From: a virus
Lineage: Duplodnaviria > Caudoviricetes
Direction: 5' to 3' (one strand)
IMG/VR virus record: IMGVR_UViG_3300001750_000020
Span: 1-27,574 of that record
Length of the DNA stretch: 27,574 nt
The number at the start of each line of letters is the position of its first letter. The first letter of the stretch is position 1. The notes under the pieces were generated by a model. That model was not told the DNA's origin, did no database searches, and saw nothing but the letters and a program-made list of their open reading frames with translations. The translations under genes and the position numbers were made by a program. Shown one piece after another: positions 2,868-13,621 of the stretch.

Positions 2868-4321
2868 CTATGTCCATCCTGCTGATTGATTAGGTAAAAC
2901 ACGTCTTGCTCGTGCCTTAGGTTTCATACTTACAATACTGTCCCCATAAAATGTACAGGCAAAAGCATCTGCTATGTCAGGTGAGTCTAACCCCCTACTC
3001 TTCATACTTCGCTTTGTCTCTAATTGTATCTGGAGTTTCTCTGTATACCCGTACGTCTGCTGTCTCAGTTCACGTATGAGCCGTTCATCGTAAGGAATCG
3101 TACCACCTTCCTTAAGCCAATCTCTCAACTTACCCCAAATCTCTGCTCTCGTATTAGCATACATACGTTTGTCAAATGCTGTAGTTCCAAAACTAACCGC
3201 AGTAACAGGTAGGCCCAATTGCTTGAGCCTATCATATACACCAGCTCCTAGACCTGTGGCATCAACATATATGTGAGAAGCTTGCTCATTCATATAAGCT
3301 TCTGCAACTTTCCCTGCTAATTCCATCAAGTCTGATAACTGATAAGAACCGACAATCTCGCTACGGGGACCCTGTCTCAATACTATGACTGAGTCATCTC
3401 CCCCACCTCTGCTAACATCCACCCCTAAAATTTTTGGATAATTTATAAAATTCATAGGTTCGGCTTCGTTACTAGCAGCTAGATTAATCACCTCCTCATC
3501 AATGAGCTGGTCGGACGCAGCTCTTGGAAATACTCCACGGACACGGACTCTCATATAATCAGAGTCTTCACCATAATCTTTGGACCATTCTGCAATCTTA
3601 TCCTTATCGGTCATCATTGCTGAACGGCTATCTATCTGTCTGGAGTCCCATCTGTCAGCGAACTTTCCCCAGCACTCTTTAAATCTTCCTGTATTCTTAG
3701 TTGGGTTACCAAAACAATGCCACTGTGAGTTAGCATCTGTCATCGAACCCTCAGATGTTTCCCATATGTTATCAGGGATAGCACTTGCCTCATCAAATAT
3801 AACCAGGTTAGCATCACTATGTAATCCAGCAAATCCCTCAGGAGTTTTCTCACTGTTGCTTAGAGCATCTACACCCCAGGTTGCCTTGTAGTCTACATGG
3901 AATATACGATTAGAAGTCTGCTCAAACCAATGCCCATTAATCATCCTACTACGCCATAGAGCTAACTCTCGCCATGTAGCTTTTTCTAGCTGTGGCCATG
4001 TATTTGCTGTGATACGACCACCACAATGTGGGTGTGTCGAGATATGCCATAGAATGATAAAGGCAGTCATAGCACTTTTACCAATACCTAACCGTGCCCA
4101 GACGAAGTGGAATACTGTAGTCGGAAATCGTCTGGGCGAGCTTTTATCCTCGTGCCCATGCTTGATAGATAATCGGATTGCCATTTATCTGGCCCACTAA
4201 ACTTCTCCAATGGGGTTCCTTTCTCACCCCAAGGAAACGCCCATAATACGAAACCAAGTGGGTCATCTACGAATGTAGCTACCTTCTTGGCTAGAGCTAA
4301 TTCAAATTGTTGTTTGTTCAT
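2868..4321 (-). CDS. terL: Terminase large subunit encoded in two frames, join(4321..4091, 4085..2868), ~482 aa
   Basis: 5' ORF (4321-4088) has DPLGFVLWAFPWGEKGTPLE..GPDKWQ and ends STSSGHG-stop. The 3' frame continues IGKSAM...TANTWPQL, Walker B LVIFDEAS, FGNP, and nuclease GVDVSRGGGDDS and SPDIADA. The Walker A SGHGIGKS forms only if the 5 nt 4090-4086 are skipped. Confidence 0.92.
4096..4137 (-). promoter_or_regulatory. Perfect 10-bp mRNA stem-loop immediately 5' of the terL coding gap (candidate recoding signal)
   Basis: GCCCAGACGA (4096-4105) and TCGTCTGGGC (4128-4137) are exact reverse complements with a 22-nt loop. Confidence 0.6.
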
Positions 4322-4323
4322 AA

Positions 4324-4443
4324 CTATCCTTTACGCTTATCTCTCTCGGCTAATTCTCTGTTGGTTGCTAATCTAATCTGACGTTTAGCCCACTCATAGG
4401 CACTGTTGGCTTTACGCATACTAGCTTTTTTAGTTCTTTTCAT
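4324..4443 (-). CDS. Small basic protein (39 aa, MKRTKKASMRKANSAYEWAKRQIRL...)
   Basis: ATG preceded by AGGA; stop lies 2 nt before the terL ATG; below the ORF-track cutoff. Confidence 0.5.
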   Translation of the reverse strand: MKRTKKASMRKANSAYEWAKRQIRLATNRELAERDKRKG

Positions 4444-4569
4444 AGTATTCCTAATAAGTGCTAGGTGTTTATACTGTCCTAGCCCAGCCCTTGTCGGAGG
4501 AAATAGGCAGGTATCTAACCTCCTATCCGACCCACACTATGGCGTAACGTATACGACCCTAGGTGTGTT

Positions 4570-4636
4570 TGGTCACCGTGTAAGAGAGTCTAACTCCTAT
4601 CCAGTAGCTTGTGGCCACCTTAGAACATCCACCGTG
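4570..4636 (-). ncRNA. tRNA-like element lacking a D-arm (degenerate tRNA or tRNA mimic)
   Basis: CACGGTG...CACGGTG-A-CCA acceptor (6/7 bp), T-arm-like TAGGAG-TTAGACT-CTCTTA, and a middle arm GGTGG-CCACAAG-CTACT. Confidence 0.4.
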
Positions 4637-4649
4637 TTTATACATCACC

Positions 4650-5333
4650 CTAAGTAAGGGTGGACTGAACGGCAACTATATCTTCAGCCTGTCCAGAATT
4701 ATCTTCTAAAATAATTGGTGTAACATCGATAACATCAGGATTAGGGAGGGAAGTACGATTAGATGCACTGTTAAGAATTGCTTCATAATCAACTTTCTCA
4801 GTTACTTCCAGCTTATTACTAATTCTTGCATCTACGTCTGTATGGTATGAGATGTCATGTAGGAGCCGAACAGCCTGGGCATAAGCACCTTTCCTTTTGG
4901 TTTCCTCAAATAAGGCAACCTGCTGTCCTAGCACCCATGCTGCATCAATGTTAAGGGCTTCACAAGCATCCTCTTGGATATGTGTCTGAAGAGCTAGTGC
5001 TTTCTGTGTATAGACCCTTCTATACTTCCTATCCAACTCACTTCTAACCATAGGAGCTGTAGTTGAGCCATCCCAACTATCGTAATTCAAATCATATCCA
5101 GCCCTAATCAGAGCGTAGGTAATGGAAGTTGTTGGTTCTGTAGCAAATATAACTGCTAGATTTCTCTGTCTCTCACTAATTCGAACTAACTTACCTTTCC
5201 CAACATGGAATGTATTATTCGCAGCAGTATACTTCTTTCCATTATCAGGTGGTATTACGTCTACATCAATTAACTTCTTTAGGAAAGTTTTAGTGGAGGT
5301 AGTCATTCCTGGCTTAATCACACTCTCATCCAT
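4650..5333 (-). CDS. terS: Putative terminase small subunit
   Basis: First late gene, upstream of terL. It has the terS-like HTH pattern (SERQRNLAVIF...ITYALIRAGY), IDAAWVL, and a C-terminal DVIDVTP. Confidence 0.7.
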   Translation of the reverse strand: MDESVIKPGMTTSTKTFLKKLIDVDVIPPDNGKKYTAANNTFHVGKGKLVRISERQRNLAVIFATEPTTSITYALIRAGYDLNYDSWDGSTTAPMVRSELDRKYRRVYTQKALALQTHIQEDACEALNIDAAWVLGQQVALFEETKRKGAYAQAVRLLHDISYHTDVDARISNKLEVTEKVDYEAILNSASNRTSLPNPDVIDVTPIILEDNSGQAEDIVAVQSTLT

Positions 5334-5362: not shown

Positions 5363-6364
5363 CTGCGTACGCAGAACACTTCTGCTTCGCAGTTAATTAT
5401 TAGTTGTTTGTTTTATTTTATATTAAAATAAATAAAACCCTATTTGTTCTCAGCCCTACTCTCTTTGAGAGGCTACTGAGTAGCTGCTAGTATTCTAGCT
5501 TATACTAGTATATACGATTGAAAACGGAAAAAGTGGTAGTGTATTTATTTGACATTAAGTATGTTCTGTAAGTTATTGATTGTTAATACCCGTATAGACT
5601 CCTACGGAGTGGCTACATCTCCGCTGATCCACTGAGTATTTTATAAAATTATATATATATATATATTTTAACTCTCTTCTTTTTATACATCCTAGAATGT
5701 TTCCGAGGTGTACTGCTTCGCAGTAAGACTCGGCAGATACCCTCTCTCTTATTTTTTTTTTTAATATAAGAGTAGGAGGATAAACCACTGAGTACAATCT
5801 ATCATTCTTTTATACATAACAACTTGTTCCGGCGTAGACGCTACTACTCCGTAGGAGTTGTCCTCCGACTGCTGCTCCGCAGAGGGGGATAGGCTATGTC
5901 CCGAGACGAACTACGGCGTAGACGTAGTGTGGTGCACACAGTAGAGTAATACCCGAGTAGAATGTATGGGAATTATCTAAAATTTTATAGTAGGTAACTA
6001 GGGGTGCAGAATATACACCCGCCCCTCTAGAAATCCCAAGGGGGTGGGGCCTCCCTATGCGCCTTCGTCGGCATATGCTAGGGAATATTTCCTTCGCTTG
6101 ACTTCCAAGGATTTCCATGAGACTATAGAACCACACTAAGGAAACAGCCAAGTAGCTACAAGCTTCTCTAAGCCTTCCTTAGGTACGGACAAGGCACACC
6201 CAGTAGGGTAGCCTAGGTGACATGGAGAAAGTGGTGCAGCGAGGCCCTTAGGTGGGTTTAAACACACCAACCGAGGTAAACTCAACCTCCCTTGACTACT
6301 TTCCAAAAGTCCTCCATAATAAAATCACACTCAGGAAACTAAGTGTACCACTGCTGCGAAGCAG
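5363..6364. repeat. Cluster of short palindromes/C(GNA)G mini-hairpins, direct repeats, (AT)8 and T11 in the divergent control region (candidate origin/terminus region)
   Basis: Hairpins at 5382, 5598, 5711, 5846, 5872 and 6354; repeats CCACTGAGTA (5629, 5785) and CGGCGTAGACG (5830, 5914). Confidence 0.55.
6292..6320 (+). promoter_or_regulatory. Sigma70-type early promoter
   Basis: TTGACT (6292-6297), 17-nt spacer, CATAAT (6315-6320), oriented toward the early genes. Confidence 0.7.
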
Positions 6365-8695: not shown

Positions 8696-8833
8696 ATGGC
8701 TACCCTATTGGCTTTATGTATTGCTATTGGACACGTTGTATATCTCCTAGAAGAGAAGCTATCCCAGATATGCGAAGAAGCTGATAGGAAACAGCATGAG
8801 AAGAAATCTGTAAGAGTGTGTAAGTTTGATTGA
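8696..8833 (+). CDS. Small hypothetical membrane protein
   Basis: GGAGG RBS; MATLLALCIAIGHVVYLL hydrophobic N-terminus. Confidence 0.45.
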   Translation: MATLLALCIAIGHVVYLLEEKLSQICEEADRKQHEKKSVRVCKFD

Positions 8834-8865
8834 TATGTATGTTGAATGACAGTTGGAGTACACTT

Positions 8866-9471
8866 ATGAATTTACAAGATGTGTTAGCTGAACACAAATT
8901 ATGGTTGGATACTAAGGGTAATAGTGGTAAACGTGCTAACTTAATAGGTGCTGAGTTAATAAATACTAATTTAAGCGGTGCTAATTTAAGCTACGCTAAT
9001 TTAATAGATGCTAATTTAGAAGGTGCTAATTTAAGAGGTGCTAATTTAATAGGTGTTGATTTAAGTAGAGCTAATTTAAGAGGTGTTGATTTAAGGTATG
9101 CTATCCTAAGTTATGCTGATTTAGAAGGTGCTAACTTAAGAGGTGCTAACTTAATAGGTGCTAACTTAAGAGGTGCTAATTTAGTAGGTGCTAATTTAAT
9201 AGGTGTTGATTTAATAGGTGTTGATTTATCAGGTTATGATTTATTTAATACTATAGGTGATGGTTCTTATATACAAACAATCCAGACAGGTGAGTATCAT
9301 ATAAACATAACAGATACTAATATACAAATAGGTTGTAAGAACTATTCTAAGAGCGAGTGGATGGCATTTACAGATAAAGAAATTTTAGAAATGGATGGTC
9401 GTAAGGCTTTAACATTCTGGAAGAAGTGGAAAAACATATTGAAACTAGCTATTGAAGATACAGGGGAATAA
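8866..9471 (+). CDS. Pentapeptide-repeat protein with DUF5758-like C-terminal domain
   Basis: About 20 A(N/D)Lxx repeats, then IQIGCKNYSKSEW...ALTFWKKWK; GGAG RBS before ATG 8866. Confidence 0.88.
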   Translation: MNLQDVLAEHKLWLDTKGNSGKRANLIGAELINTNLSGANLSYANLIDANLEGANLRGANLIGVDLSRANLRGVDLRYAILSYADLEGANLRGANLIGANLRGANLVGANLIGVDLIGVDLSGYDLFNTIGDGSYIQTIQTGEYHINITDTNIQIGCKNYSKSEWMAFTDKEILEMDGRKALTFWKKWKNILKLAIEDTGE

Positions 9472-10491: not shown

Positions 10492-10659
10492 GTGTTAACA
10501 TATAAAGAGTTAGACGAGTTTAGTATAATGATAAACGAACCTGGTGACATAGTGACAGTTGGTGAATATACTTTCCGTATTAACCCAGATGGTACGTTAG
10601 ATTGGTTAGATATTGAATCTGAGTCAGAAGAATTTGAATGGGCTGGAGTACACTTATGA
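10492..10659 (+). CDS. Small acidic hypothetical protein (55 aa)
   Basis: GTG start after GGGGA; ends with an ATGA overlap into the ORF at 10656. Confidence 0.45.
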   Translation: MLTYKELDEFSIMINEPGDIVTVGEYTFRINPDGTLDWLDIESESEEFEWAGVHL

Positions 10660-10828
10660 ATTTACAAGATGTGTTAGCTGAACACAAATTATGGTTGGAT
10701 ACTAAGGGTAATAGTGGTAAACGTGCTAACTTAATAGGTGTTGATTTAATAGGTGTTGATTTATCAGGTTATGATTTATTTAATACTATAGGTGATGGTT
10801 CTTATATACAAACAATCCAGACAGGTGA
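10644..10828 (+). repeat. Exact internally deleted duplicate of the pentapeptide-repeat gene (truncated ORF 10656-10844)
   Basis: 10644-10740 = 8854-8950 and 10741-10828 = 9206-9293; 255 nt (17 pentapeptides) are missing. Confidence 0.9.
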
Positions 10829-11083: not shown

Positions 11084-13621
11084 ATGAGTGGGATTGTACT
11101 ACAGAAAGTTGAGATAGATGGAAGAACAGTACAACTGTTCCAAGATGAGGCTAGCGGTAAGATTACTGGGTACAGTTTCTCACAGGATAGATACTACGAT
11201 AACCCACTAGAAGATAATCTCCCTGAAGACTTTAAACCCACTAAGATGGGAATGTCTGAAGAAGAGATGAAGGAGAAGGTTAGGGAGATATGGAACTATC
11301 CAACTGCTGACCTAGACGATGGCCTACTTAGAGCTGAAACACTAAAGCGATTTGGTATTAAGGTTGGCTTGAGTGAAGCAGATGGGGAGACACCTAATAC
11401 TATCCACTTTCCGTACAGGAAGAAAGGTAAGATTATAGGTTATAAGTCTAAGCTAATTAGCCCTAAAAAGTTCTGGTCTGTTGGCCCTATCAAAGACTCT
11501 GAGTTGTTCGGATGGAAGGAAGCGGTCCTCAGTGGAAGTAATAAGCTCTATATTACAGAAGGAGAATGCTTTGAACCTAGCTCTGAGGTATTAACAAGAA
11601 AGGGTTGGGTTCCATTAGATGAGTTTAAGGGGGAGGATGTACTACAGGTATTAGAGGATGGAAGTAGTGAATTTGTAAAACCTATAGCTAAAGTAGTTAA
11701 AGAATACAGTGGTGATATGATTCACTATGAATCTGGAAGCTTCAAGTCCACAACTACGGAGGGACACAAGCTGGTACGTGTTGACAATGGTGGACTTACC
11801 AAGGTTAGCAGCACCTCACATATCCATCTACCTATACCTAGAGCTTCGCAGTTCTCTAAAGATGTGGATTGTGACTTAACAGATATTCAAATACAGACAT
11901 TGGTTATGTTCTCAGCAGATTTTTCTCTGCGTGAAGGTGGAGATATCTATGGATGTTTCTCTAAGGAAAGAAAGATTGAGAGAGCTACTGAGTTACTTGA
12001 TAGACTAGGTGTTAGATACTCTTCTAACTTGGAATCTAGTGGAATGACTAATTTCTATATACGTAGAGGACAAGGGGTATTATTCCAGAAAGAGTTTGAC
12101 CAATCTCTCATATTGTCTATGAGTAGGAGACAACTTGTATTATTTCAAAAGGAGTTGGTTCACTGGGATGGCAATAGTGTACCTAATAGAAATCAAGAAG
12201 AGTATTCTAGTAAGATATTAGGTAATGCTACTACTGTACAAACCGTGTGCCACCTGTTAGGTTTTACTTCCACAATTATTCGTAGGTCTAACGAGTTGGG
12301 TAGTTGGTTCAAAGTGAGTATGTTATACGGAAAGTCTACTTCATCAACTCAGAAAGGATACACTAGGAAGGAGTATAGCGGCACAGTAATGTGTGTAACT
12401 GTACCCTCCGGAATGATAATGGTTAGGCAGGATGAATCTATCTCTGTTTCAGGAAACTGTGATACGGCAGCCACATATCAGATGTTGAAGGATAAGAATG
12501 CTGGAACTAAGTGGGAGGATATAGAACATGCTGTCATATCTGTACCTAATGGTGCTGGTGCTGCTAAGTCTGCTCTAATGAAGCAAGCGTCTACTATCAA
12601 GCGTAAGTTTGATGAGGTTGTACTCCTGTTTGATATGGACGGACCTGGGCAGAAGGCTGCTATTGAAGTTGCGAAGGTGTTACCTAATGTCAAGATTGCA
12701 GACATGCCATTGAAGGATGCACGTGAATGTCTTATCAAAGGGAGGCAGAAGGCGTTCTGTAATTCAGTCATATTCAAAGCTGAGAAGCCAAAGAATACAA
12801 GGCTATTGTCTATAGACTCTTTGTTTAAGAAGGCGAGAGAGCCTATAGCGCATGGGTATTCATACCCCTGGCCTAGGACAACAGAGCTAACTAGGGGTAT
12901 ACACTTAGGTCAGACAATATACATAACAGCACCAGAGAAGGTAGGCAAGAGCGAGTTATTAAATGCTATAGCAGTACACTGCATGGAAGAACATAACTTA
13001 AAGTGCCTATTGATGAAACCTGAAGAGGACCCAGCACACACCGTTAAGATGTTAGCAGGTAAGATAGCAGGTAAGTTTTTCAATGACCCAAATATCCCAT
13101 TCGATTATGAGGCATATGATAAAGCTACCACTAAGTTAGCAGGTAAGGCTACTATATTGGATGTGTATCAAGACTTATCTTGGGATACTATGCAGGATGA
13201 CATAAGGTATGCTGCTTCAGAGGGGACTAAGATTGTATTTGTTGACCCACTGACAGCAGCTACCACAGGACTGAGTGCATCTGATGCTAACACTAAGCTA
13301 CAGGAAATAGCGCAAGGTCTTTCCACAATGTCTAAGGATTTAGGTATCACTATCTTTATCTTTACACATACAAGAAATCCTAAGAGTGGCCTAGCCTTCA
13401 ATCGTGGTGGACATATCGAGGTAGGTGATATCACAGGAGGTAGGGCTATGGGACGTTCAGCTCATCAAGTGTTTGCCCTACAGTCTAACCAAGACCCTGA
13501 GCTTAGCGAGGACGAAAGAAACCTAAGAGAGTTGGTCCTACTTGCTGATAGGAATATAGGTGCAATCGGTACTACCAACTTGTTTTGGGATAAGAACACA
13601 TCCCTGTTTAATGAAGTTTAA
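11084..13621 (+). CDS. T7 gp4-like DNA primase/helicase precursor containing an intein
   Basis: TOPRIM motifs ITEGE|CD, SVPNGA, LFDMDGPG and KDARE; DnaB-type helicase Walker A TAPEKVGKS and FVDPLT. Confidence 0.92.
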   Translation: MSGIVLQKVEIDGRTVQLFQDEASGKITGYSFSQDRYYDNPLEDNLPEDFKPTKMGMSEEEMKEKVREIWNYPTADLDDGLLRAETLKRFGIKVGLSEADGETPNTIHFPYRKKGKIIGYKSKLISPKKFWSVGPIKDSELFGWKEAVLSGSNKLYITEGECFEPSSEVLTRKGWVPLDEFKGEDVLQVLEDGSSEFVKPIAKVVKEYSGDMIHYESGSFKSTTTEGHKLVRVDNGGLTKVSSTSHIHLPIPRASQFSKDVDCDLTDIQIQTLVMFSADFSLREGGDIYGCFSKERKIERATELLDRLGVRYSSNLESSGMTNFYIRRGQGVLFQKEFDQSLILSMSRRQLVLFQKELVHWDGNSVPNRNQEEYSSKILGNATTVQTVCHLLGFTSTIIRRSNELGSWFKVSMLYGKSTSSTQKGYTRKEYSGTVMCVTVPSGMIMVRQDESISVSGNCDTAATYQMLKDKNAGTKWEDIEHAVISVPNGAGAAKSALMKQASTIKRKFDEVVLLFDMDGPGQKAAIEVAKVLPNVKIADMPLKDARECLIKGRQKAFCNSVIFKAEKPKNTRLLSIDSLFKKAREPIAHGYSYPWPRTTELTRGIHLGQTIYITAPEKVGKSELLNAIAVHCMEEHNLKCLLMKPEEDPAHTVKMLAGKIAGKFFNDPNIPFDYEAYDKATTKLAGKATILDVYQDLSWDTMQDDIRYAASEGTKIVFVDPLTAATTGLSASDANTKLQEIAQGLSTMSKDLGITIFIFTHTRNPKSGLAFNRGGHIEVGDITGGRAMGRSAHQVFALQSNQDPELSEDERNLRELVLLADRNIGAIGTTNLFWDKNTSLFNEV
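11567..12457 (+). mobile_element. Intein (297 aa) with LAGLIDADG-type homing endonuclease domain
   Basis: Starts CFEPSSEVLTRKGW, has block B TTTEGHK, ends VSGN followed by Cys+1; endonuclease motifs LVMFSADFS and LVHWDGN. Confidence 0.9.

What the first reader, a model, noticed from the sequence alone, without database searches (positions are those of the whole stretch)
4074..4102. Terminase large subunit appears to require a 5-nt ribosomal hop over an amber codon inside Walker A (GGU-UAG-GU)
Seen: the minus-strand mRNA reads UCU GGG CAC GGU UAG GU AUU GGU AAA AGU. The 5' ORF ends S-G-H-G-stop and the other frame continues I-G-K-S. Removing 5 nt (4090-4086) gives the Walker A SGHGIGKS typical of this TerL type and a ~482-aa enzyme with all other motifs intact. 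The last codon before the stop (GGU, 4093-4091) is repeated exactly 5 nt on (GGU, 4088-4086, overlapping the stop). Established: matched take-off/landing codons around a stop define translational bypassing (T4 gene 60: Gly GGA, UAG, 50-nt gap); from memory, a short bypass was also proposed in terL of Streptomyces phage phiHau3. Inference: peptidyl-tRNA(Gly) slides +5 nt, giving a minimal natural stop-hop that could keep TerL scarce and also yield a 77-aa N-terminal product. TerL is essential, neither fragment has a full P-loop, and amber readthrough or a -1 shift does not restore the motif.
Basis: partly seen in the sequence, partly recalled or inferred. Interest (0 to 1): 0.92.

Follow-up and report, generated by a model that had tools for sequence, protein, structure and literature searches.

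The report
Recurrent five-base ribosome hop in terminase
The DNA-packaging motor gene of this uncultured marine phage is broken in its ATP-binding loop by five extra bases that begin with a stop codon, the same five bases sit at the same spot in two distantly related phages, and ribosomes likely hop over them, which would be one of the shortest natural cases of translational bypassing.

Summary
Confirmed and extended. The only terL found in this phage reads GGU-UAG-GU inside Walker A. Three assemblies agree (probably one sample). 117 of 119 homologues have no insertion there. The identical insert TAGGT sits after the same Walker A glycine in two other phages: a Firmicutes-type temperate phage (L083, 29% identical) and a Terminase_3/6-type gene (L374, no significant BLASTP similarity). 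Each has intact nearer relatives (75%, 55%, 96%), so the gap most likely arose three times. With the five bases left free, both terL matches (2 of 54) still had TAGGT. A hairpin ends five bases before the stop in the window (0/300 recoded controls) and L374 (3/300), not significantly in L083 (198/300). Best reading: peptidyl-tRNA(Gly) hops +5 at the amber codon (0.7); no RNA or protein data test it. Homing-endonuclease inteins target this loop, so the gap may give immunity (untested). It works like phiHau3 terL bypassing (10 nt, UUA-led), here stop-led and 5 nt. The scan noted similar terL gaps on other DNA six times, once with 5 nt (unchecked notes).

The parts
4088..4321 (-). terL 5' ORF, 77 aa, ending at the second Gly of Walker A and an amber stop
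   Evidence: keeps 13 of 13 columns invariant in 12 intact relatives
4096..4137 (-). Predicted mRNA hairpin: perfect 10-bp stem (4137-4128 with 4105-4096), 22-nt loop; its 3' arm ends 5 nt before the stop and takes in the first base of the E-site codon
   Evidence: z -4.08, 0 of 200 shuffles; 0 of 300 and 7 of 1000 synonymous recodings; found post hoc
4091..4093 (-). Take-off codon GGU (Gly 77)
   Evidence: sequence; role inferred
4086..4090 (-). 5-nt coding gap TAGGT: amber codon 4090-4088 and matched landing codon GGU 4088-4086
   Evidence: sequence; same five bases at the same motif position in L083 and L374; present in three assemblies
2868..4085 (-). terL 3' frame, 405 codons from the resume codon ATT (I-G-K-S), with Walker B and nuclease motifs
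   Evidence: phrog_2 terminase large subunit E 2e-36; 75% identical to intact P0002; 147 of 156 invariant columns kept
4324..4443 (-). 39-aa basic ORF directly upstream of terL, also present in intact relative L002
   Evidence: not part of the gap
4650..5333 (-). 227-aa ORF, probable small terminase by position (inference; no family hit)
   Evidence: syntenic homologues in L002 and L004
3..1505 (-). Portal protein gene (cut by the window end), placing terL in an ordinary packaging module
   Evidence: PF23899 SU10_portal

Best explanation
The terL gene carries five extra bases inside Walker A, and full-length terminase is likely made by a programmed +5 ribosomal stop-hop over them. Shown: the gap, the matched GGU codons, the amber codon, the open downstream frame, the invariant loop length in homologues, and recurrence in two distant terminases. 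Inferred steps: (1) the ribosome pauses with GGU in the P site and UAG in the A site; (2) a hairpin refolding against the E site pushes it forward (predicted in the window and L374, not supported in L083); (3) peptidyl-tRNA(Gly) lets go of GGU and re-pairs on the GGU five bases on, and decoding resumes at AUU; (4) most ribosomes would terminate, and a small share of full-length product would suffice for a late enzyme needed in few copies. Why it is kept (weaker, about 0.4): the insert would spoil the target of homing endonucleases that invade this loop while leaving the protein unchanged.
For: Identical insert after the second Walker A Gly in three terL lineages with intact nearer relatives at 75%, 55% and 96%. 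Free-gap control: 2 of 54 matches were terL, both TAGGT. Family-free G-x-G pattern: 3 of 16 matches were gapped genes, all terL. +5 is the first GGN triplet after take-off in all three and opens 405, 422 and 399 codons. No loop insertion in 117 of 119 and 112 of 120 homologues; the rest lack the region or carry inteins. The 51-kb contig of this phage has overlapping ends that the window bridges, one terL and no tRNA. Hairpin at the same register: 0 of 300 (window), 3 of 300 (L374). Precedents: phiHau3 hops Gly GGC to GGU in Walker A and gave a junction peptide in E. coli once UUA was changed to a stop (PMC10732093, passages); a hairpin beside the E site stimulates forward shifting at a stop in 70S extracts (PMC6321510, section 2.1). 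For the immunity idea: endonuclease-bearing inteins sit 9 nt downstream, after the Walker A Lys, in L006 and L007 (P0079 has the same intein exit); P0192 has an intein C-terminus at the very junction; an HNH gene lies upstream of terL in L374's contig and in intact L002; the T4 gap blocks MobA nicking (10.1101/2022.08.31.505936, passages).
Against: No transcript, ribosome or peptide data. All three cases are uncultured contigs, and raw reads were not seen. No gapped close relative of the window was found: 1 of 74 metagenome matches (the same contig) and 0 of 10 genome matches were terL, so the gap cannot be dated. The hairpin in L083 is no better than chance (198 of 300, z 0.34), and L374's is modest by shuffling (12 of 200). 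In the 70S study the hairpin effect appeared only without RF2. The window's 3' part changes 9 of 156 invariant columns, more than the 0-5 of ten of twelve relatives. IMG/VR calls the contig linear and 74% complete. L083 is temperate (integrase), where a dead gene could persist. No endonuclease gene lies beside terL in the window or L083. Three of my five gap patterns in viral contigs fixed the stop, so only one search tests it freely.
Confidence: 0.7

Rival explanations
1. A -1 (or +2) shift at GGU-U adds two residues, giving G-L-G-x-G-K-S, and the enzyme tolerates it.
For: The alternative frame reads Leu-Gly into the motif without a stop in all three genes; G-L-G-G-G-K-S occurs naturally in 4 of 120 relatives of L374.
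Against: The P-site tRNA(Gly) cannot pair with CGG (-1) or UUA (+2). No two-residue insertion in the loop in 229 full homologues, and His four residues before the Lys is kept in 117 of 119 of the window's family. It does not explain why the matched GGU recurs.
Confidence: 0.08
2. The gene is dead or conditionally dead: a recent insertion in a defective or helper-dependent phage, or one that reverts by slippage between the two GGT triplets.
For: Every close relative with a readable N-terminus is uninterrupted; L083 is temperate; 9 changes at invariant columns; no gapped second strain of this phage.
Against: Random decay would not give the same five bases at the same motif position three times (1 in 1024 per repeat for free bases). 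The 405-codon frame has no other lesion, pN 0.20 against pS 0.74 versus L002. The phage contig looks circular with one terL, at depth 31 with no alternative contig.
Confidence: 0.1
3. The five bases are removed at RNA level: hairpin-driven RNA polymerase realignment from one GGU to the next, or an unknown micro-splicing (the insert can be read G|GTTAG|GT).
For: A hairpin next to a slip site is also a feature of transcriptional realignment (recalled, not read); the flanking repeat allows realignment.
Against: Realignment would rest on a 3-bp hybrid. It needs no in-frame stop, yet both free-gap cases start with UAG. No Rfam intron match in the window. Bacteria have no spliceosome (established knowledge).
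Confidence: 0.07
4. The two ORFs are translated separately and the pieces work together, the second starting at the ATG at 4184.
For: An ATG-led 438-aa frame overlapping ORF1 exists in the window; split enzymes occur in T4-like phages.
Against: The break is inside the P-loop. In L083 and L374 the downstream frame is closed 17 and 11 codons before the junction with no ATG, GTG or TTG start in between. There are no added terminal extensions as in MobA elements.
Confidence: 0.03
5. Sequencing or assembly error.
For: The three assemblies may share one read set; they disagree by 4-nt indels at nearby simple repeats.
Against: All three keep the gap; it is not a homopolymer or exact tandem repeat; two other phages from other records carry the same insert.
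Confidence: 0.02

Closest known systems
Candidate translational bypassing in terL of Streptomyces phage phiHau3 and two prophages (PMC10732093)
   Same: Same gene and motif: the g6/g7 gap lies in Walker A (GWG|KD), take-off is a Gly codon (GGC) and landing GGU; 5' hairpins are predicted close to take-off; only a precise hop keeps the motif.
   Different: Gaps of 10 and 7 nt led by the rare sense codon UUA and proposed to sense the host's developmental stage. Here 5 nt, led by an amber stop that overlaps the landing codon, after the second rather than the last Gly, in hosts where UUA is not rare (150 uses in the window's ORFs).
Phage T4 gene 60 50-nt bypass and the MobA element (10.1101/2022.08.31.505936; 10.1101/2024.12.09.627546)
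   Same: Matched Gly codons, UAG directly after take-off, a 5' stem-loop thought to push the ribosome, and possibly protection from a homing endonuclease.
   Different: Ten times shorter (the shortest relative described is 20 nt); no A-site stem-loop, no recognisable mini-SD, nascent-peptide signal untested; no linked endonuclease in the window; different gene.
Synthetic stop-hops and short tRNA hops in E. coli (PMC5009743 passages; Weiss 1987 and O'Connor 1989 seen only as citations in PMC4519876)
   Same: Matched codons around a slow stop codon; +5 hops are named in the Weiss 1987 title.
   Different: Those are low-level events in constructs; the 2016 review says no natural in-frame stop-hop was known and that short matched-codon bypasses were only presumed. 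This would be a natural, essential, recurrent use.
Inteins with homing endonucleases in the TerL P-loop (PMC5050341)
   Same: Same insertion hot spot; seen here in relatives.
   Different: Inteins are in frame and removed from the protein; this is a 5-nt out-of-frame DNA insert with no splicing domain.

Membership tests
Programmed translational bypassing (general) | Non-coding block that splits one conserved ORF into disjoint frames | tested here: met
   5 nt between 77 and 405 codons; collinear with 482-aa relatives
Programmed translational bypassing (general) | Matched take-off and landing codons | tested here: met
   GGU/GGU in 3 of 3 genes
Programmed translational bypassing (general) | Stop or slow codon in the A site at take-off | tested here: met
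   UAG in 3 of 3; free choice in 2 of 2
Programmed translational bypassing (general) | Gap present in mRNA and absent from protein (junction peptide) | not testable with these tools
   No RNA holder listed; no proteomics
Programmed translational bypassing (general) | Stimulatory mRNA structure 5' of take-off | tested here: inconclusive
   Significant in the window and L374, not in L083; function untested
phiHau3-type UUA bypass | Rare UUA codon in frame at the gap's 5' end in a Streptomyces phage | tested here: not met
   In-frame codon is UAG; UUA is common in this genome
phiHau3-type UUA bypass | Gap in TerL Walker A with Gly take-off | tested here: met
T4 gene 60 / MobA cassette | 20-50-nt gap with take-off (A-site) stem-loop in a topoisomerase gene | tested here: not met
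   5-nt gap in terL; folds that include the gap are weak
T4 gene 60 / MobA cassette | Linked free-standing homing endonuclease | tested here: inconclusive
   None or no remnant beside terL in the window or L083; HNH_3 gene about 0.5 kb upstream in L374's contig; intact L002 also has one
T4 gene 60 / MobA cassette | Nascent-peptide stimulator | not testable with these tools
   needs mutagenesis
Group I/II intron or intein | Ribozyme core or Hint domain at the break | tested here: not met
   5 nt only; no Rfam match in the window at gathering scores
Amber recoding or phage suppressor tRNA | TAG read as sense genome-wide, or a phage tRNA | tested here: not met
   TAG ends many ORFs; no tRNA in G001 or G002; readthrough hits a stop after 6 codons

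The most novel reading that the evidence does not exclude
Hairpin-AC-GGU-UAG-GU is a minimal recoding cassette that phages of very different lineages have evolved repeatedly: five bases that break the homing-endonuclease and intein target in the TerL P-loop and are erased by the ribosome alone, an intron-free form of immunity to selfish elements and a natural, essential +5 stop-hop.
Probability: 0.3. Interest if true: 0.9.

Novelty: new variant of a known kind. Interest (0 to 1): 0.76.

Why it matters
Natural translational bypassing is known from very few genes (T4 gene 60, yeast mitochondrial inserts, the phiHau3 candidate). A 2016 review states that short matched-codon bypasses had been presumed but not found. 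A five-base, stop-led gap that recurs letter for letter in three distant terminases gives a minimal, directly testable cassette (about 60 nt) for asking whether wild-type ribosomes use stop-hops productively and whether a hairpin at the E site drives them. It also means that some 'broken' terL genes in phage metagenomes are likely functional, and it may tie recoding to the arms race with homing endonucleases. Tempering this: nothing is shown at protein level, the phiHau3 precedent is in the same motif, and this scan has noted similar terL gaps elsewhere.

Tried and rejected
No RNA holder listed, so expression is untested. Gap pattern in GTDB genomes: 0 of 10 matches were terL. In metagenome contigs: 1 of 74, the same contig as L001. 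Variable gaps of 5-33 nt with a matched GGN landing codon in the G-H-G family: 2 of 68 (the two known 5-nt cases) and 0 of 63; two of four codon variants after the Lys were not scanned. Survey of 83 terL loci, some partial: only this phage's gene was split. Search for short proteins ending at the motif: 4 hits, only the window's own ends at G-H-G. Short-DNA searches of cultured phages: 11 rows, one terminase, intact. Split terL rows H105 and H83 are indels far from Walker A in otherwise error-like records. L379 and L366 are chance matches in intact genes. No solved structure matched the family profile. An internal Shine-Dalgarno signal was rejected: the GGG/GGA three bases before take-off is the motif's own Gly codon and is GGC in L374. 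The shared 'AC' before take-off is weak evidence: the A is forced by His or Tyr. A target-site duplication or transposon footprint does not fit, since the insert is no exact duplication in any of the three. No endonuclease remnant in the window's 4444-4649 spacer. P0010, P0151, P0175 and P0246 begin just after Walker A and could be further gapped genes or contig-end cuts; their DNA could not be seen. Literature searches found no report of a stop-led 5-nt gap in a terminase; the library holds only openly licensed PMC papers and bioRxiv.

Full report
Observation. On the minus strand the terL message reads TCT GGG CAC GGT TAG GT ATT GGT AAA AGT. The 5' ORF (4321-4088, 77 aa) ends S-G-H-G-stop. 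The frame that resumes at 4085 is open for 405 codons and matches the terminase large subunit family phrog_2. The sum, 482, is the length of the three closest intact relatives. Amber readthrough meets a stop after 6 codons and a +1 shift after 3. The window, the IMG/VR contig L001 and a Logan contig of run X1 (depth 31, no alternative contig) all carry the five bases, although they differ from each other by 4-nt indels in simple repeats near 5404-5447. These are three assemblies but probably one sample; raw reads were not available.

The host genome. The phage's 51,151-bp contig (G001) has ends that overlap by about 139 nt with a one-base difference, and the window bridges them, so it looks circular; IMG/VR nevertheless lists it as linear and 74% complete. 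It has one terL, no tRNA, a primase-helicase, family A polymerase and ribonucleotide reductase module, and I recognised no integrase among the ORFs scanned (23 window ORFs and a few more; the rest by eye only). A lytic lifestyle is therefore inferred, not shown. Against 12 intact relatives the 5' ORF keeps 13 of 13 invariant columns and the 3' part 147 of 156. The 9 changes look mostly conservative but exceed the 0-5 seen for ten of the twelve relatives in leave-one-out. pN is 0.20 against pS 0.74 versus L002.

The loop takes no insertion. Of 119 homologues, 117 have exactly 13 residues across the strand and P-loop, with His four residues before the Lys; one starts downstream and one carries an intein. 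In a survey of 83 viral terL loci, some partial, only this phage's gene fell into two frames.

Recurrence. A degenerate pattern for the gapped motif matched 2 viral contigs, both terL: this phage and L083. L083 is a temperate phage with an integrase; its TerL is 29% identical to the window's and about 50% to Clostridioides phage terminases; a 55% relative (L170) is intact. A control with the five bases free gave 54 matches; 2 were terL and both had TAGGT. A family-free pattern (G-x-G, gap, x-G-K-S/T) gave 16 matches, of which 3 were gapped genes, all terL: the third, L374, reads V-T-G-Y-G, gap, G-G-K-S. It has no significant BLASTP similarity to the other two (E at least 0.19), and a 96% identical relative, P0125, is intact. 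Since each case has intact relatives far closer than the other cases, the gap most likely arose or was acquired three times. It is rare: 0 of 10 genome matches and 1 of 74 metagenome matches (the same contig as L001) were terL, and no other gap length was found in 68 and 63 matches covering two of four codon variants. P0247 equals L374's 3' product and P0246 differs by one residue and starts at the same internal Met, a possible second gapped strain whose DNA I could not see.

RNA context. A perfect 10-bp stem (4137-4128 with 4105-4096) ends five bases before the stop: z -4.08 against shuffles, 7 of 1000 and 2 of 1000 synonymous recodings for stem length and energy; none of 77 windows of the downstream gene has a stem above 8 bp. 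This was found post hoc. Taking that register as fixed, L374 has a hairpin closing at the same base (3 of 300 recodings; 12 of 200 shuffles) and L083 has only a weak one (198 of 300). Intact relatives of moderate GC content give 0 to -7 kcal/mol at that register and GC-rich ones -14 to -18, so base composition confounds that comparison.

Mechanism. With GGU in the P site and UAG in the A site, the first GGN triplet ahead is at +5 in all three genes, and it leads into the long frame with the exact motif. The -1 and +2 positions offer CGG and UUA, which a Gly tRNA cannot read, and would add two residues. I commit to a +5 stop-hop (0.7). Shown: gap, codons, frames, recurrence. Inferred: pausing, detachment, re-pairing, help from the hairpin, low yield. 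A hairpin beside the E site stimulated +1 shifting at a stop in 70S extracts, but only without RF2 (PMC6321510: abstract, sections 2.1 and 3.1); its effect on frameshifting falls with distance in eukaryotic assays (PMC3639245, passages). RNA-level removal is less likely, since it needs no stop, yet both free-gap cases begin with one.

Why here. The P-loop of TerL is an intein hot spot (PMC5050341, passages). In my data, endonuclease-bearing inteins sit after the Walker A Lys, 9 nt from the gap, in L006 and L007, with the same exit in P0079, and in more distant terL loci. P0192 shows an intein C-terminus at the very junction that the gap occupies. An HNH gene lies about 0.5 kb upstream of L374's terL, and intact L002 has one too; the window and L083 have none beside terL. 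In T4 the bypassed insert blocks MobA nicking (10.1101/2022.08.31.505936, passages). Immunity to homing is thus a fitting but untested reason; I took this lead from an earlier scan note.

Comparison. phiHau3 terL has 10-nt gaps led by UUA; the first lies in Walker A and runs Gly GGC to GGU, with hairpins predicted near take-off. A full-length product was seen in Streptomyces, and a junction peptide in E. coli after UUA was changed to a stop (PMC10732093: abstract, passages, section 3.4, first part of the discussion; supplements not read, and they hold the authors' structure models). T4 gene 60 shares Gly codons, UAG and a 5' stem-loop (10.1101/2024.12.09.627546, passages) but needs far more signals. 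Stop-hops are known from constructs; the 2016 review knew no natural in-frame case (PMC5009743, passages); the 1987 and 1989 papers I saw only as citations (PMC4519876, passages). This case works like those but fails membership of the UUA type and of the gene 60/MobA type. Searches found no printed report of such a gap, within a library of openly licensed papers. The scan's own notes list six terL gaps on other DNA, one of 5 nt; I did not check them, and look-ups by sequence and place found nothing for this gene or L374.

Verdict. A real feature; a new, minimal, stop-led variant of translational bypassing, recurrent in three distant terminases, untested at protein level. Interest 0.76.

Noticed in passing
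L374 (G003, IMGVR_UViG_3300013101_003008), junction at minus-strand 1007-1014 of the locus; L083:1607-1614: Two further terL genes with the same 5-nt gap. In L374, 4 of the 27 residues before the gap differ from the 96% identical intact sibling (p about 0.03 against the downstream rate), two of them in the hairpin arm; other intact relatives share those residues, so the direction of change is open.
   Followed up: yes
window 4444-4649 (minus strand): About 200 nt of non-coding, structured sequence between the probable terS and a 39-aa basic ORF (MFE -63.5 for 209 nt; z -2.1 for the 3' 149 nt); intact L002 has a spacer of similar length after its HNH gene. No Rfam match.
   Followed up: partly
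L359:615-1490 and 1950-2876 (outside the window, same phage): Two LAGLIDADG endonuclease ORFs between the scaffold-like gene and the major capsid gene, with flanking non-coding DNA; possibly introns in the capsid gene, though Rfam found none at gathering scores.
   Followed up: partly
window 11084-13621: The primase-helicase carries an insert of about 300 aa that begins C-F-E-P and ends S-G-N before C, like an intein (by eye; Pfam did not name it).
   Followed up: no
P0192: TerL that starts with an intein C-terminal segment ending H-N directly before S-G-K-S: an intein (perhaps split) at the same junction as the gap.
   Followed up: partly
L002:421-969: Free-standing HNH endonuclease between terS and terL in the closest intact relative with DNA.
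   Followed up: partly
window 5404-5447 and 5740-5878: The window differs from L001 and the Logan contig by 4-nt indels in simple repeats; 5740-5878 is the overlap of the two ends of the 51-kb contig.
   Followed up: yes
window 8830-9471: Pentapeptide-repeat protein gene (PF00805), with internal repeats also found near 10644-10828.
   Followed up: no
P0010, P0151, P0175, P0246: TerL entries that begin just after Walker A; may be more gapped genes or contig-end cuts.
   Followed up: no
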